A stretch of 64,000 nt of DNA from Emiliania huxleyi CCMP1516 (GCF_000372725.1 NW_005201381.1:183953-247952), one strand, 5' to 3'. Positions 16,349 to 59,855 are shown, counted from the stretch's first letter. Numbers and translations: made by a program. Notes: a model not told the origin generated them from the letters alone.

Positions 16349-19085
16349 CTACTCGGCCTCGATGACGATCGCCGACGCGCCGCCGCCGCCGTTGCAGATG
16401 CCGGCGACGCCAATCTTGCCGCCCTTCTCGCGCAGCACCGAGAGGAGGGTGACGACGATGCGCGCGCCCGAGGCTCCGATCGGGTGGCCAATCGAGACGG
16501 CGCCGCCGCGCACATTCACCCTCGTGGGGTCGAGGCCGAGGAGCTGATTGTTGGCGACGGAGACGACCGAGAAGGCCTCGTTGATCTCGAAAAAGTCGAC
16601 GTCAGAGATGGCGAGCCTGCGTCACGAGCTCACACCGGAGTCAGGGCGGGAAATACGGCCTCCTGCTGTGTGCGGAGAGGTTCGCGTCTCAAATACAGCT
16701 GAGTGCAGTCGAGCACAACTGAGCGCCGCTGAATGCCGCTGAATGCCGCTGAATGCCGCCGGATGCCGCCTGAATGCCGCTGAATGCCGCCCGGAGCACT
16801 TTCCCTCTCTCGAGTGCTGGTCGGAGTACAAAGGTGCGCAGCCGGCATCTAGGACGGCGAGCCCCGCGCGCGCGAGGGCCTTCGGGATCGCCGCCGCCGG
16901 CGCCGTGGTGAACCAGCACGGTTCCTGCTCCGCGTCGGCCGAGCTGCGGATGGTGGCGAGGATCGGGGCGCCAGCCGCCTCCGCCTGCGAGAGAGAGCCG
17001 AGATCCGACCGAGTAGTAGCCGGGAGGGGCGCCAGACCCGCCTGGCGCCTGAGAGCGGGACATGAGCACGAGGGCAGCGGCGCCTGCGGTGGAGGGCGCC
17101 GTGGGCGGTGACTGCGTCGGTGACGGTGACTGCGTCCCGAGAACGACGGACTGAGGGAGGGGGAGAGAGGAGAGGGGAGAGGGGAGAGGGGAGAGAGAAC
17201 AGAGGGGAGAGAGAGCACAGAGCAGAGAGAGAGGAGAGGGTCGGGCTGCCGTCCGAGATGGTCGACGCATTGGCCGCCAGGAAGTGTCTCGGAAGTGTCT
17301 CGGAAGTGTCTCGGCTGCCGTCCGAGATGGTCGACGCATTGGCCGCCGTCACGGTGCCGTCCTTCTTCTTGAAGGCGGGCTTGGCGGCGGACGCTGGGCG
17401 CGGCTCCGGCGCGCATTCGTCGTCGGCGGTCACGATCACATCTCCCTTGCGAGACTTGACCGTCACGGGTGCGATCTCGTCGCCGAAGGAGGCTGTGCCG
17501 GGAGGGGAGGGGCGGCTACTCGTGTAGCAAGGTCGGGCACTCACCACAGGGTCTGGTGCCCCGTACCCTGCGGACCCAGTCCCGAGGCCCGTCGGGGCAC
17601 TCTCCACTAGGCTGCTGCTCCCACATGGCCTGGGCACTCCTCCCCCGGCGAGCTTGCCCACATCTCCCCCCATCTCCCCCCATCTCCCCCCATCTCCCCC
17701 GGCGAGGTTGCCCACCACAACGCTCGAGGGGCATGTGGGTCAAGTGGGTCCGTTGCGGCGACCGAGACACGGAGACCGAGACACGGAGACCGAGACACGG
17801 AGACCGAGACACGGAGACCGAGACACGGAGACCGAGACACGGAGACCGAGACACGGAGACCGAGACACGGAGACCGAGACACGGAGACCGAGACACGGAG
17901 ACCGAGACACGGAGACCGAGACACGGAGACCGAGACACGGAGACCGAGACACGGAGACCGAGACACGGAGACCGAGACACGGAGACCGAGACACGGAGAC
18001 CGAGACACGGAGACCGAGAGGAGAGGACGCGGGCGAGGGCGAGGAAGAGAGAGTGACAGAAAGAAGAGAGGCTAAGGGGGGGAGTTGGAGTGCTAGCTAT
18101 ACGCGCGCGGCACCGGCGCGCGCTCGGCGGTACGACTCGTCGGCGTGGGCGTCCTGCCGAGAAGAGAGGCGTGCAGTCAGCAAACGTCCCGGGCGGTGGA
18201 ACGGCTCGCGTGCGTGCGCGTCCTGCATCTCGCGCGTGATGCCGTGCGTCTCTGCGCAGAGCTCTGCGTGGCCGCCTGTGGCGGAGGCGGCGGCGGCGGT
18301 GGTGGTGTGGCTCGAGGCGGCGGCGAAGGTGGTGGTGGCAGCGGTGGCGGCGGCGACGGACGTGGCGAAGGTGGTGGCGGCGGCGGCGGCGGCGGCAGCG
18401 GCAGCGGCGGTGTTGCGAAGCAGGTGAGGACGAGGCAGGGGGGGCGAGGGCGGAGGAGGCGAGGGCGGAGGAGGGCGACGTCGTGGCGGTCGCGGCGGGC
18501 GTGGAGAGAGGCGCGCGGCGTGCGGACAGGGCGGAGACGGGCCGGGGCGTGGGCGGCCGCACCCATGTGGCAGTTGTCGTACGGATCCCACAGCCCGTCG
18601 AACACGAGGCCGTCGACCATGGTAGCGTCGCCCATCCTCGCCCCAAAGCGCGCCTTGGGAAGGTAGTACGGCACGTTGGACATCGACTCCATCCCACCCG
18701 CGACAAGCACGTCCGCGTTCCCCAGCACGATCTCTTGCGAGCCCAGCGTGACCGCCTTCATGCCGGACGAGCAGACCTTGTTGACGGTCGTGCAGCAGGT
18801 GCTGTCGGGAAGCCCGGCCATCTGGGCGGCCTGGCGGGCCGGGGCCTGGCCCATCCCGGACGCAATCACGTTGCCCATCCAGCACTGCTCCACGCTCTCC
18901 TTTGGCACGCCCGCACGGTCGAGCGCCGCGCTGATTGCAGCCGAGCCAAGTTCTGGCGCCTTGAGCGCGGCGAGCGAGCCGTTGAAGCCACCGACCGGAG
19001 TCCTCGCGACGCCGACGATGACGGCATCGCGCGGCGACTTGGCGGCCGAAGAGAGGCGGCGAGCGCTCTGGCGGAATACACGCAT
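16349..19085 (-). CDS. ACAT1: Acetyl-CoA C-acetyltransferase (thiolase), probably mitochondrial, multi-exon
   Basis: [93 protein letters not shown]; presequence [13 protein letters not shown]. Confidence 0.93.
16617..16862 (-). mobile_element. Introner-like intron in thiolase (246 nt including GCTGAATGCC repeats)
   Basis: GCTCGCCGT versus exon start GCTCGCCAT; then CCTAGAT; 3' end ...TTCCCGCCCTGACTCCGGTGTGAGCTCGTGACGCAG. Confidence 0.75.
17761..18018. repeat. 14-bp minisatellite (ACCGAGACACGGAG)n, ~18 copies, in a thiolase intron
   Basis: Direct inspection. Confidence 0.95.
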
Positions 19086-19832
19086 TAGTGTCAGGAGACT
19101 CCGTGCACGGCCGCCAAGTAAGTGATCACGCTCTTAGTGAGCCCGCGCACAACATTTTTTTAAAGTGTATGTAGCTGTAGGTAGGTCTTACGAACATACC
19201 CGAGGGGTGAACTGCTGACAGGGTTTGCGATGAGAAGCGATCCGAACGTGGCATTCGGGTGATTAGATCACTACCGCCGTAACGCAAGAGCACTGCGACG
19301 GATCGGGCTCATGCTAGCATCCACCTCGCGGGCCCGATGTTCTGGCCCAGCGACGCAGCGAGGCTGCTGCGGAGCACTCGCGGGCCGACTTTCTGGCCCA
19401 GCGAGGCCGCTGCGGGACACACCCCGGCGGCTCGGTTCGCTCCTCAACGCAAACTCGGTCGAGCAAGAGGTCAAGGTGTGTGTGTGTAAAGGCGGCGCGG
19501 CACGGTAAGACTAAGAGTCGGCGGTCGGGCGCGCGGCGCGGCGGCAACAGACGGCAAGCAGGGCATCGGACGGCGGGACATTTTGCCTCCATGCTCCGAG
19601 CCTGGCTGTCCATTCGAGCCTGGCTGTTCATTCACCTTCCTACCGTAATCTAACAATGGCGGTTAGCTGTTAACAGCTAGGGTAGGCCTAGGCCGAATGA
19701 TTTTCCTCGAATCATTCCGTGCCTGCCTGTTTGTGTAAGTTTCAACTTATCCGCGCGCCGGTGAGTGCGGCACCGGCGCGCGACCCGCCACTGACCGCTG
19801 CTGTGGCTGCCCGAACCAACGCCGGCCAGCTC

Positions 19833-57824: not shown

Positions 57825-59855
57825 CTATCGCTGCATCTCGGCGGGTGTGCGCCGGTAGCAGCCGCCGCCACCCTCGTCGAGGATGGCGTCAAGGAGCGCG
57901 GCGGCCATCTTGCGCCCTCCCTCCGGCGACGGCTCGACCCGCTGCACGTAGTCTCTCGGGTCGCTGCCGTCGAGCGCCTCGAAGAGCGGGAATGGCACAA
58001 CCTCCACGCCCGGGATGGCGACGCGCCGCGTGGCGAGGCTGAAGAGGGCGCGGATGGCCGCCTGCTCTCGGGTGATCTCGAGTGATCTCGGACGATCTCG
58101 AGTGATCTCGGGCGGTCTCGGGCGGTCTTGGGCGTTCTCGAGCGATCTCGGGCGATCTGGAGTGATCTCGCGCGCGGGCGGCTGCCTGCAGCCGCGCGGG
58201 CGAGCTGTCGTAGCAGACCATCTGGCAGCGCTTTGAGGAGGCAGTCAGGACACGAGTTCACTACTTGGTGGACCAGTGGACTGTGCGGTGTCGGCCGTCT
58301 CGCCACATGTTTGCGTGCTAGCCCCACGTGCGTGTGTGCTGAATGTCCCTCGCCCTGGGCGTGATGCGCGTGCGTGCCCCTGCCCGAGGTGAGACTGTAC
58401 ACTACAGGTCGCCTTGAGGAAGCAGTCCGCCCAGGAGCCGCGCCCGTGCACGTCCAAAAAGTAGATCATGCAGACGACCACCCTTGCGGGCCGCCGGCCT
58501 AATCTCGGGTAATCTCGGCTAATCTCGCCGGCTGGCACTGCACCTCGGTCCCATCGAGGGTGATCTCGGGTGATCTCGGGTGATCTCGGGTGATCTCGGC
58601 TAATCTCGGCCGGCGAGCAGTCGCTCGATGTAGTTTTGGACGCGGTTGCCAAAGAGGTCGACAAGGTAGCCGAGGCCGGGCGGGCAGCCGCAAGGCGAGA
58701 CGAGGCAACCTGCGGGCAGGCAAGCTGTTGAGTAGTCCATAGTCGATGGCGGGAGGGAGTGGGCCTGCGGGTCAGACTGTGGGGGAGACTAGCTGGCTGG
58801 TTCATTGAGGACGGGTCGCATGTACTCAACCCTTTTTCACGCACGCGGGCCGCCCACGACCGACTGTGAGTCTCTCGGGGCAGGCTCCGGGACGGCTCCG
58901 GGCAGGGCCTGGGAAGGGTCTCGGGGATCCCGGGTGGACTTCTGACTGTCGTTGCTGCCTGTCCAATCTCGACGGTCTGTCTTGTGCGTCTGGGCTCGGG
59001 GTTGTGTTTTTGCGGGAACAGACAAGGGCGTGAGGCGATGTGTGCCCTGGCAGGCCGCAGCAGGCGCAGCCAAGGAGGGGGGGCCCATAGGGTGATCTCG
59101 GGCGATCTCGGGCGATCTCGCATTGCAGCCTGGCAGGCCGCAGCAGGCGCAGCCAGGGTCGACCCGCAGGTTGGGTGGGCAGGCGCAGGCGCACTGCTCT
59201 ATGCAGACCTGTGGCACGAGATCGGAGGGGAGATCACGCGAGATCGGCCGAGAGATATGCCGAGAGAGCCCGAAGATGCAATGTACCTCATGCGGGTGGG
59301 TGTGTCGCCCCGGTGTCCTGCGCAGCGTGCCCCGCGCAATGTCTACTCCCAGACCTGCGGCGTGCAGCAGGCGACCAGCGAGAGGTTGAGCGCTGTGAAG
59401 AGCAGCGGCTCAAGCGCGATGTCGTTGCCGCCAACCGACACGACCAGGACGTCGTCCGGGCCGATGGCACTCGCGATCAGCCGGTCCTGCGGCGTGAGCC
59501 GGCCGCACGCGCGCGTGTTGAGCGAGGTGGCCTCGACCGCGGTGTTGAGGCAGAAGAGGCGGCCGCCATGCCCCCGCCGAACCAGCTCGTCGTTGAGCCA
59601 GTAGCACACGTCGGTCTTCATCCTGCCCGGCGCGAGGACAGCCTCGTACCCGTTGGTCGCCGCCGCCCACGAGTCGAACCAAAACTTGTTGTCGAGCGAA
59701 GAGTCGCCTGCGAGGAAGATGCAGGAGCGGCGGCTGCCGCTCCTGCCTCCGCGCAGCGACGCGTGCACGCGCCGCAGGAAGTTTGGGTTGTGACCGTAGT
59801 ACTCAGAGTAGTACTCGCCGGCGCCAACCAGCGGCGTGGTGGTCGAGGGCGACAT
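57825..59855 (-). CDS. SGNH/GDSL hydrolase-like protein with Cys-rich insert, spliced
   Basis: FLAGDSSLDN (block I), VVSVGGNDIAL (block III), C-terminal DYVQRVEPSPEGGRKMA. Confidence 0.72.

What the first reader, a model, noticed from the sequence alone, without database searches (positions are those of the whole stretch)
17240..59160. Recurrent 'duplicated exon edge + 10-11-bp filler' architecture across many introns
Seen in at least six genes. Thiolase 17245-17348: 35-nt exon end repeated around (GAAGTGTCTCG)3. XRN 22358-22561: exon end in three copies with AT-rich filler. XRN 23452-23523: first 27 nt of the intron match the next exon at 18/27, then (GAGATCAGCC)n. ATP-delta 40120-40260: three copies of the exon start GTCCCGACCATCGCC around (CCCACAATCT)n. 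WD40 47550-47627: ~35-nt decayed copy of the next exon, then GACATGTCC repeats; the same filler occurs in ZEP intron 1856-1932. SGNH 59044-59157 and 58042-58186 show the same pattern. Inference: a mutational process, such as staggered-break repair with reiterative templated synthesis, that duplicates flanking sequence and adds ~10-mers, creating or remodelling introns independently of transposons.
Basis: partly seen in the sequence, partly recalled or inferred. Interest (0 to 1): 0.75.

Follow-up and report, generated by a model that had tools for sequence, protein, structure and literature searches.

The report
Introns born from duplication plus filler
In this coccolithophore alga many short introns consist of a 12-40-base copy of the neighbouring exon plus a short filler often shared with other introns, and RNA shows several of them spliced out exactly, so they are likely new introns made when staggered DNA breaks are repaired with copied DNA.

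Summary
Real and general. The window is from a Gephyrocapsa/Emiliania coccolithophore. Of 64 hand-annotated introns, 13 begin with a copy of the next exon (1.1 expected) and 20 carry an exon-edge copy (1.6 expected). In metagenome loci plus the window, 72 of 205 10-11-mer arrays are flanked by a direct repeat (0.3% in permuted pairs). The units are insertions with a 12-41-nt target duplication; most total 60-79 nt, at the intron-size floor. Usually the exon copy supplies a GC/GT/GA donor and the filler the AG. RNA contigs skip such inserts exactly (one tested intron in the window, 14 listed joints in a VPS13 locus). The DNA runs laid keep them: no artefact at tested sites, but no empty allele either. 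Fillers are not only 10-11-mers: 7 families and 32 singletons, with junction microhomology, rarely templated from the flank, so mostly copied from elsewhere. Most likely: staggered-break repair captures DNA, often another intron's 3' end, and splicing filters survivors; reverse-transcriptase-driven insertion is the main rival. Introner surveys list E. huxleyi families, mostly with unresolved target duplications and mechanism. New variant of a known kind.

The parts
1261..1464 (+). ZEP intron 1: three tandem 68-nt units, each a copy of the next exon start plus a member of the non-repetitive GTGAAC filler family; GT donor from the exon copy
   Evidence: (spliced frame open); not checked with reads
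1856..1932 (+). ZEP intron 2 (77 nt, GC-AG): decayed 25-nt copy of next exon (20/25) plus GACATGTCC-type filler ending in TAG
16617..16862 (-). Thiolase intron starting with a decayed copy of the next exon (13/20); its 3' part resembles ATP-grasp intron 12966-13226
16985..17048 (-). Thiolase 64-nt intron, 5' end a gapped copy of next exon
17244..17347 (-). Thiolase: perfect 35-nt duplicate (exon end plus donor) around an 11-mer filler; 69-nt insert that extends the existing intron 17084-17318
18154..18222 (-). Thiolase 69-nt GA-AG intron, 5' end a decayed copy of next exon (15/20)
20648..20691 (-). XRN2: plain 22-nt tandem duplication of an acceptor, no filler
20741..20821 (-). XRN2: 17-nt copy of exon end plus donor (16/17) around a 10-mer filler, 64-nt offset, inside intron 20657-20811
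   Evidence: read directly; below the score cut-offs
21330..21399 (-). XRN2 70-nt intron of the mirror type: 3' end is a copy of the previous exon end (14/20) giving an AAG acceptor
21568..21641 (-). XRN2 74-nt GC-AG intron, gapped copy of next exon start
21735..21799 (-). XRN2 65-nt GA-AG intron: 28-nt duplicate (27/28) plus 37-nt non-repetitive filler; exact removal restores colinearity with a haptophyte-type XRN2
   Evidence: present without gaps in DNA contigs of runs X2, X3, X4
21938..22015 (-). XRN2 78-nt GA-AG intron, decayed copy of next exon (15/20)
22358..22562 (-). XRN2: exon end plus donor (38 nt) in three copies with AT-rich 11-mer filler; insert later amplified in tandem; extends intron 22144-22533
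   Evidence: run X4 keeps two copies and skips one 78-nt unit, allele or assembly collapse
22799..22932 (-). XRN2 134-nt intron with a 15-nt internal copy of the previous exon end and a 10-mer filler
   Evidence: RNA joint in X11
23452..23522 (-). XRN2 71-nt GC-AG intron: 18/27 copy of next exon plus GAGATCAGCC filler ending in TAG
   Evidence: record positions of RNA contig X11 no. 4 add up to exact removal
31618..31664 (.). Intergenic 18-nt duplicate with an 11-nt filler resembling sequence 40 nt upstream (locally templated)
40121..40261 (-). ATP synthase delta: two successive inserts (offsets 70 and 45 nt) duplicating the acceptor and exon start, with a 10-mer filler and an AT-rich filler
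45732..45810 (.). 19-nt duplicate around a GGGGAGATAT-type filler, 60-nt insert; gene context not resolved
45931..45999 (+). WD40 gene 69-nt GC-AG intron, 17/20 copy of next exon
47391..47516 (+). WD40 intron, decayed copy of next exon (12/20) plus 11-mer array
47549..47627 (+). WD40 79-nt intron, gapped copy of next exon plus GACATGTCC-type filler
47937..48013 (+). WD40 77-nt intron, gapped copy of next exon plus 10-mer filler
58062..58185 (-). SGNH intron, weak copy of next exon (12/17) plus long 10-mer array
   Evidence: borderline alone
58222..58412 (-). SGNH intron with a decayed copy of the previous exon end near its acceptor
59046..59158 (-). SGNH: 30-nt duplicate of exon end (29/30) around a 53-nt filler; 83-nt insert
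   Evidence: not checked with reads

Best explanation
These are insertions of about 30-55 bases flanked by a 12-41-base duplication of the target, likely made when a staggered double-strand break is repaired by filling in both overhangs and copying a filler from elsewhere in the genome, and those landing in exons likely persist only if the whole insert is spliced out as a new intron. Shown: the duplication-filler-duplication anatomy, its excess over chance, the donor (GC, GT or GA) at the start of the exon copy, the AG at the filler end, exact removal in RNA, filler families shared between unrelated genes, and 2-8-nt microhomology at junctions. Inferred: the break and its repair (polymerase-theta-like or synthesis-dependent end joining), capture by microhomology, and selection. 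Because the alga accepts GC and GA donors, almost any G in GC-rich coding DNA can become a donor, so the limiting parts are an acceptor and a length of about 64 nt or more. The 3' end of an existing intron supplies both, so acceptor-bearing fillers would spread from intron to intron, often within one gene, which would explain why 10-11-mer arrays crowd these introns. The same inserts landing on an exon edge only lengthen an old intron (thiolase 17244, XRN2 22358, ATP-delta), and some units are later amplified in tandem (ZEP 1261).
For: Anatomy and statistics: 72 of 205 arrays flanked by a direct repeat versus 0.33% of 3000 permuted pairs and 1 of 205 inverted; holds without 9 doubtful loci (72 of 199), for non-CCGAGAT units (27 of 87) and at one array per locus (39%). 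Donor within 3 nt of the duplicate start with AG at the filler end: 31 of 72 versus simulated mean 6.1, maximum 13; 40 of 90 versus 10.9, maximum 21. Splicing: RNA runs X11 and X12 (one study) skip 14 listed introns of a VPS13 locus, 12 of 14 being 64-79 nt, 7 of 14 at 12/20 identity or more to the next exon versus 2.7% in permuted pairs; DNA runs X6 and X7 show none of these joints. Length: 74 of 125 duplicate pairs have offsets of 60-79 nt, duplicate and filler lengths are anticorrelated (rho -0.48, n=85), and the shortest of 64 window introns is 64 nt. Repair rather than one element: 12 of 125 pairs are near-plain tandem duplications of 21-32 nt; 88 events fall into 7 filler families and 32 singletons, including AT-rich patchworks; junction microhomology of 3 nt or more in 12 of 40 scorable junctions versus 5.7% simulated; fillers within 600 nt resemble each other in 4 of 16 pairs versus 62 of 1731 between loci; a few fillers echo their own flank (L032, window 31636); GTGAAC-family copies in L071 and L050 end inside the family sequence. 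Literature: breaks with overhangs give tandem duplications, at times with templated inserts (PMC5730883, passages); E. huxleyi donors are 56% GC, 40% GT, 4% GA (PMC4028052, passages), as here 36/25/3.
Against: No empty allele was seen in the five DNA runs laid (X2, X3, X4, X6, X7; joint tables were cut, 73 and 21 rows hidden), so no insertion was caught in the act and intron gain rests on anatomy, not on an outgroup. Average local templating, the classic polymerase-theta mark, is absent. Variable long duplications, 5'-variable fillers and a mostly fixed 3' end in the GTGAAC family also fit target-primed reverse transcription; one filler is telomeric repeat (L013). 20 of 72 events have no exact GT/GC-AG register and 13 none even with GA, yet share the 60-110-nt range; edge-extending inserts, free of a size floor, also measure 45-83 nt, so the narrow size may be partly mechanistic. 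Among events without a donor, filler-end AG is slightly in excess (24 of 50 versus 37% simulated, between the 95th and 99th percentile). The mirror type is not enriched (10 versus 5.4, maximum 11). The shifted-offset control did not discriminate (mean 34 of 72, up to 58). Loci were chosen for young homogeneous arrays, so 35% is no genome-wide rate. Window introns were set by eye, which may favour repeated edges; three are uncertain. No repair enzyme was looked for.
Confidence: 0.6

Rival explanations
1. A reverse transcriptase (non-LTR retro-element enzyme or telomerase) inserts short cDNA copies of intron 3' ends or repeat RNAs at staggered nicks, giving variable long target duplications; a retro-introner. 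Splicing filters survivors as in the best explanation.
For: Variable 12-41-nt duplications; GTGAAC family has variable 5' and mostly constant 3' ends at the acceptor and is high-copy by read depth (bins at 21,000-24,000 versus about 100 in X6; not a copy number); slight AG excess without a donor; TTAGGG filler with a 19-nt duplicate in L013 and a 10-mer array running into TTAGGG in L117; neighbours alike and in the same orientation, as a shared pre-mRNA would give.
Against: At least 39 unrelated filler types among 88 events and no common tail; near-plain tandem duplications of the same size; family copies that end inside the family sequence with microhomology; fillers in either orientation to the spliced strand (17 versus 3 in donor-type events, 13 versus 5 in window introns); both motif scans of viral contigs were empty.
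Confidence: 0.22
2. A dedicated non-autonomous DNA element or nuclease system of fixed total size near 69 nt makes the inserts (introner with an unusual long duplication or a molecular ruler).
For: Sharp mode at 68-72 nt (38 of 88), also in some inserts that need no size floor (69, 70, 64 nt); E. huxleyi is listed with introner families of 70 and 37 nt (PMC9860276 supplement rows; PMC12130899 supplement rows).
Against: Duplication length is not fixed, no terminal inverted repeats bound the fillers, ends vary, and three of four GTGAAC copies fold no better than shuffles; the size mode coincides with the intron-size mode.
Confidence: 0.09
3. [quoted passage not shown]
For: Plain tandem duplications and tandem amplification of whole units exist; many arrays show no flanking duplicate (133 of 205).
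Against: Perfect 20-41-nt duplicates abut complete 35-50-nt fillers of families found in unrelated genes; few intermediates (6 of 125 pairs at offsets 35-59); whole RNA-confirmed introns consist of exon copy plus filler and nothing else.
Confidence: 0.07
4. Assembly error or chance similarity from GC content and splice consensus.
For: Duplicates of 31 nt or more can confuse short-read assembly; one unit at 22357-22436 is skipped in X4 and in a low-depth X11 contig; five of the cited sites were not checked with reads.
Against: Permutation nulls keep composition and consensus; independent DNA contigs carry the inserts and RNA removes them; the pattern recurs in separately assembled metagenome contigs.
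Confidence: 0.02

Closest known systems
[quoted passage not shown]
   Same: Filler inserted at a staggered break, flanked by direct repeats, becomes a spliceable intron.
   Different: There the repeats are short (5-8 nt or more, one 16/18 case), the review counts 5 unambiguous events and one Drosophila test found no excess. Here duplicates are 12-41 nt, form about a third to a half of the intron, occur in about a fifth of sampled introns, and fillers form self-similar families.
Introners / introner-like elements (Aureococcus, Symbiodinium, Polarella; 10.1101/2020.10.14.339549, PMC9860276, PMC12130899, PMC11282704, passages seen)
   Same: 5' splice site co-opted from the start of the target duplication, 3' site carried by the insert, GC and GA donors, repeated families. 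E. huxleyi CCMP1516 is listed with 653 elements in five families of 37-70 nt and three families in 2025.
   Different: Described target duplications are 3-9 nt and fixed per family, often with terminal inverted repeats. Here they are long and variable, no inverted termini, ends vary, and a third of fillers are singletons. In the listed E. huxleyi rows TSD/TIR read '?' or 'N'; two of the three 2025 families are 'Unknown' and one is called LTR. Whether my GTGAAC family is one of them was not tested.
Tandem genomic duplication at AGGT (PMC3443670, passages)
   Same: A duplicated exon segment supplies a splice site and allows exact excision.
   Different: There both sites come from the duplicate and it must be intron-sized; here a short duplicate gives the donor and foreign filler gives the acceptor and length.
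Tandem duplications and templated inserts from end joining at paired nicks (PMC5730883, passages)
   Same: Small duplications with microhomology, sometimes with inserts.
   Different: Templates there are the break flanks; here most fillers match distant families. Not linked to intron gain in the passages seen.
10-11-bp tandem repeats of E. huxleyi introns (Read et al. 2013; recalled, paper not held)
   Same: Same repeat class; period 10-11 is the commonest in the window.
   Different: As I recall, the repeats were reported without flanking duplications or a role in intron birth.

Membership tests
DNA-transposon-type Introner | Repeated intron families with inter-copy similarity | tested here: met
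   7 filler families hold 56 of 88 events; the GTGAAC family has 10 events in 6 loci plus the window copy
DNA-transposon-type Introner | Short target duplication of fixed length per family (3-9 nt) | tested here: not met
   12-41 nt overall, 21-34 nt within the GTGAAC family
DNA-transposon-type Introner | Terminal inverted repeats and constant element ends | tested here: not met
   Inverted flank matches 1 of 205; 5' ends vary; 3 of 4 copies fold no better than shuffles
DNA-transposon-type Introner | One splice site co-opted from the duplication, one carried | tested here: met
   31 of 72 versus 6.1 simulated; RNA joints
Intron gain by double-strand-break repair | Direct repeats flank the intron above background | tested here: met
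Intron gain by double-strand-break repair | Intron absent in other alleles or close relatives | tested here: inconclusive
   No empty allele in five DNA runs of near-identical sequence, tables cut; no outgroup DNA available
Intron gain by double-strand-break repair | Filler of heterogeneous origin | tested here: met
   32 singletons and 7 families in 88 events
Polymerase-theta-mediated end joining | Junction microhomology | tested here: met
   12 of 40 junctions at 3 nt or more versus 5.7%; part of it may reflect selection for AG
Polymerase-theta-mediated end joining | Insert templated from the immediate flanks | tested here: not met
   5.73 versus 5.64 nt in 44 young events; a few single exceptions
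Polymerase-theta-mediated end joining | Dependence on POLQ | not testable with these tools
   No genome held; needs mutants
Tandem genomic duplication (AGGT model) | Both splice sites inside the duplicate, no foreign sequence | tested here: not met
   Foreign filler in all intron-sized cases; an internal register is the best one in 12 of 72
Non-LTR retrotransposition (TPRT) | Variable-length target duplication and 5' truncation | tested here: met
Non-LTR retrotransposition (TPRT) | Common 3' tail or homology to an autonomous element | tested here: inconclusive
   No poly-A or tail shared across families; no element library or genome to search; viral scans empty
Telomerase-made interstitial repeats (recalled) | Filler is the telomeric unit | tested here: not met
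   One TTAGGG filler found (L013) among 125 pairs; the rest differ

The most novel reading that the evidence does not exclude
Coccolithophores run a self-feeding intron factory without a transposon: repair of staggered breaks copies the 3' ends of existing introns into exons, a long target duplication supplies the donor, and this has produced a large share, perhaps most, of their short introns, their 10-11-bp intronic minisatellites and the G-C/G-T/G-A match between donors and next exons.
Probability: 0.4. Interest if true: 0.88.

Novelty: new variant of a known kind. Interest (0 to 1): 0.76.

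Why it matters
Where new spliceosomal introns come from is an old open question; a 2012 review counted five unambiguous repair-derived gains (PMC3443670), and later work credits transposons (introners). 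Here each young intron carries a 20-40-base record of its insertion site, so thousands of events could be dated, ordered and traced to donors in a culturable, globally abundant alga with many sequenced strains. It would give a mechanism for E. huxleyi's GC/GA donors matching the next exon (42 of 64 introns versus 24.8 expected), its intronic 10-11-mers and the introner families now filed as unresolved. It also warns annotators: GA-AG introns and intronic exon copies mislead gene models.

Tried and rejected
Whole-genome analysis was not possible (no genome held). Read et al. 2013 is not held, so the 10-11-bp repeat statement is recalled. Viral origin of fillers: two motif scans of viral contigs found nothing. 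Local templating as the general filler source: rejected. Shifted-offset control for splice registers: uninformative, replaced by simulated insertions. Excess of 3n insert lengths: 32 of 72 in one set but 30 of 73 with 33 at 3n+2 in the other, so dropped. Hairpin structure of the GTGAAC filler: only the L071 copy is significant. Tracing single fillers to single donors: 46 of 72 share 25 nt or more with another locus, but mostly through identical units, so no donor can be named. Filler heterogeneity (6.8%) versus duplicate divergence (2.1%) is biased by choosing duplicates with at most one mismatch. Polymorphism: none seen; L008 and L075 (95% alike) both hold the 31-nt-duplicate insert and differ by one amplified unit. 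The first read-laying run was crowded by repeat noise and listed only two RNA joints. Three look-ups of earlier scan findings returned nothing. Rows dropped before counts: 3 overlapping loci; arrays lacking 70-nt unmasked flanks (116 of 321); 9 low-GC or doubtful loci; pairs outside 55-130 nt, with filler under 25 nt or of coding/TE type; the TauE-like gene, ATP-delta intron 1 and FKBP intron 1 were not annotated.

Full report
Organism. No genome is held for the window. It is 55-74% GC with period 10-11 the commonest tandem repeat. An intronless parvulin gene is 96% identical to a Gephyrocapsa oceanica protein, XRN2's best named relatives are haptophytes, and donors are 36 GC, 25 GT, 3 GA, close to the 56/40/4% reported for E. 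huxleyi (PMC4028052, passages). I treat it as Gephyrocapsa/Emiliania.

Observation. Seven of the eight cited sites are as described and one (SGNH 58062-58185) is weak alone. I set 64 introns in 14 genes by eye and checked them by spliced translation (two coordinates corrected) and, for XRN2, by alignment to two relatives. Past the splice dinucleotide, intron starts match the next exon at 7.9 of 20 versus 5.8 in permuted pairs; 0 of 20000 permutations reach this. 13 of 64 pass a strict cut-off (1.1 expected), 10 of them among the 26 introns of 82 nt or less; 20 of 64 hold an exon-edge copy somewhere (1.6 expected). The mirror comparison at intron 3' ends is not significant overall. Hand annotation could favour repeated edges, so I sought an RNA-based test.

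Generality. One metagenome scan for three copies of the CCGAGAT-type 10-mer gave 121 loci, 245 kb; eight listed matches to window repeats are 90-99% identical. Of 205 scorable 10-11-mer arrays, 72 have left and right flanks that are direct repeats, versus 0.33% of permuted pairs and 1 inverted. This survives removal of doubtful loci, restriction to other unit types (27 of 87) and one array per locus (39%), but only 3 of 25 window arrays pass this particular test, and the loci are enriched for young arrays. A scan not tied to arrays found 125 duplicate pairs: 12 near-plain tandem duplications at 21-32 nt, 6 at 35-59 nt and 74 at 60-79 nt.

Anatomy. The unit is duplicate, filler, duplicate. Duplicates are 12-41 nt, from perfect to 80% identical. 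In 31 of 72 events a GT or GC lies within 3 nt of the duplicate start and the filler ends in AG, so that removing exactly the insert is a canonical splice; simulated insertions give 6.1, maximum 13. With GA donors allowed, 40 of 90 versus 10.9. The mirror type occurs (XRN2 21330, L006) but is not enriched. 20 of 72 have no exact GT/GC register. Duplicate and filler lengths trade off (rho -0.48, n=85), and the size mode, 68-72 nt, sits just above the shortest window intron, 64 nt. Inserts on exon edges only extend old introns (thiolase 17244, XRN2 20741 and 22358, ATP-delta); whole units are sometimes amplified (ZEP 1261, XRN2 22358, L095, L099).

Reads. On window 18100-31800, DNA contigs from three studies run through the 65-nt insert at 21735-21799 without gaps, and the record positions of one RNA contig add up to exact removal of 23452-23522. 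On locus L043 (VPS13-like by my reading of its translation), two RNA runs of one study skip 14 listed introns, with 3-25 letters fitting either side; 12 of 14 are 64-79 nt, all 14 resolve to GT, GC or GA with AG, and 7 match the next exon at 12/20 or better versus 2.7% in permuted pairs. Two DNA runs show none of these joints and their contigs cross most of the introns. So the inserts are real, spliced and shared; no empty allele was seen, with both joint tables cut.

Fillers. Among 88 events there are 7 families (28, 10, 5, 4, 4, 3, 2) and 32 singletons; the largest is inflated by my search pattern. The second family is not a tandem repeat: a ~43-nt sequence with an 11-nt internal direct repeat, found in the window's ZEP intron and in over a dozen loci, with variable 5' ends and a mostly constant 3' end at the acceptor; its read depth is some 200 times single copy per bin. 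Others are AT-rich patchworks, one is telomeric repeat. Units match their own flanks no better than other flanks. Junction microhomology of 3 nt or more is seen in 12 of 40 scorable junctions versus 5.7%. Fillers within 600 nt are alike more often than between loci (4 of 16 versus 62 of 1731, p 0.002). Young fillers are often internally mixed (biased sample). Viral contigs hold neither motif.

Mechanism. Shown: anatomy, splice geometry, exact splicing, shared fillers, microhomology. Inferred: two nicks 12-40 nt apart give overhangs that are both filled in; a 3' end primes by microhomology on other DNA, often a nearby or abundant intron, copies 30-55 nt and rejoins. In an exon this survives if the duplicate starts at a usable G (easy with GC and GA donors), the filler ends in AG and the total reaches about 64 nt. 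Intron 3' ends meet these needs, so their sequences spread. End joining at paired nicks is known to give tandem duplications, at times with templated inserts (PMC5730883, passages). I give this 0.6. Reverse-transcriptase insertion (0.22) explains variable duplications and the fixed 3' end but less well the many unrelated fillers, the plain duplications and copies ending inside the family sequence. A fixed-size element or ruler (0.09), slippage with later repeat growth (0.07) and artefact (0.02) follow.

Known and new. It works like repair-derived intron gain (PMC3443670, PMC2809761, PMC3296678; passages) and uses splice sites like dinoflagellate and pelagophyte introners (10.1101/2020.10.14.339549, PMC11282704, PMC9860276, PMC12130899; passages). 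It fails two defining introner features: short fixed duplication and inverted termini. E. huxleyi introners are already catalogued: 653 elements in five families with TSD and TIR marked '?' or 'N' (supplement rows), and three families in 2025, two unknown and one called LTR. So repeated introns in this alga are known, and the 10-11-bp repeats too (recalled). I found no description of the long variable duplication or the filler diversity in ten searches of the open library; subscription papers and some supplements were not visible. PMC8469720 (passages) proposes intron insertion during break repair in fungi but without flanking duplications.

Verdict. Observation confirmed; interpretation partly supported; new variant of a known kind; interest 0.76. 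The boldest reading not excluded, a transposon-free self-feeding source of most short introns in coccolithophores, has probability 0.4.

Noticed in passing
window 12966-13226 and 16617-16862 (both minus): Introns of two different genes share about 110 nt at their 3' ends (alignment score 36); no further copy in the loci. Possibly another captured intron end or a small mobile element.
   Followed up: partly
window 4140-5530, 8470-8800, 42930-44290: An element bounded by degenerate GCTGTCAG repeats occurs in several copies, in opposite orientations, with shared internal coding-like sequence.
   Followed up: no
window 41440-41770 and 60110-60430: The 5' part of a small gene is present twice, 18.7 kb apart.
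   Followed up: no
L117:300-400 and L028:3940-4040: A 10-mer array runs through a fold-back junction into TTAGGG repeats inside a 9-mer satellite (L117); head-to-head inverted arrays of the same 10-mer in L028. Organism of these low-GC loci not established.
   Followed up: partly
L013:709-870: Telomere-type repeats serve as filler between 19-nt duplicates and end in TAG.
   Followed up: partly
L056:150-420; L066:260-630: Clusters of three to four inserts within 300-400 nt, showing local hot spots and, in L066, a shared filler variant.
   Followed up: partly
window 18154-18222, 21735-21799, 21938-22015: All three GA-AG introns in the window are of the duplicate type, suggesting GA donors mark young introns, as reported for dinoflagellates.
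   Followed up: partly
window 1261-1464: Three abutting 68-nt units, each a complete GT-AG intron with zero-length exons between; could be spliced in one step or recursively.
   Followed up: no
window 9415-9490, 35450-35560, 38240-38290, 61290-61350: A short repeated element next to simple-repeat tails of different units, SINE-like.
   Followed up: no
window 26033-26217: A 67-nt intergenic duplicate at 120-nt offset; DNA runs X2, X3 and X4 show a 93-nt skip here (26143 to 26237), in a high-copy repeat.
   Followed up: no
window 59029-59129 (minus): If the 83-nt SGNH insert merely extended an old intron, the older donor would be GG; the history of this junction is unresolved.
   Followed up: no
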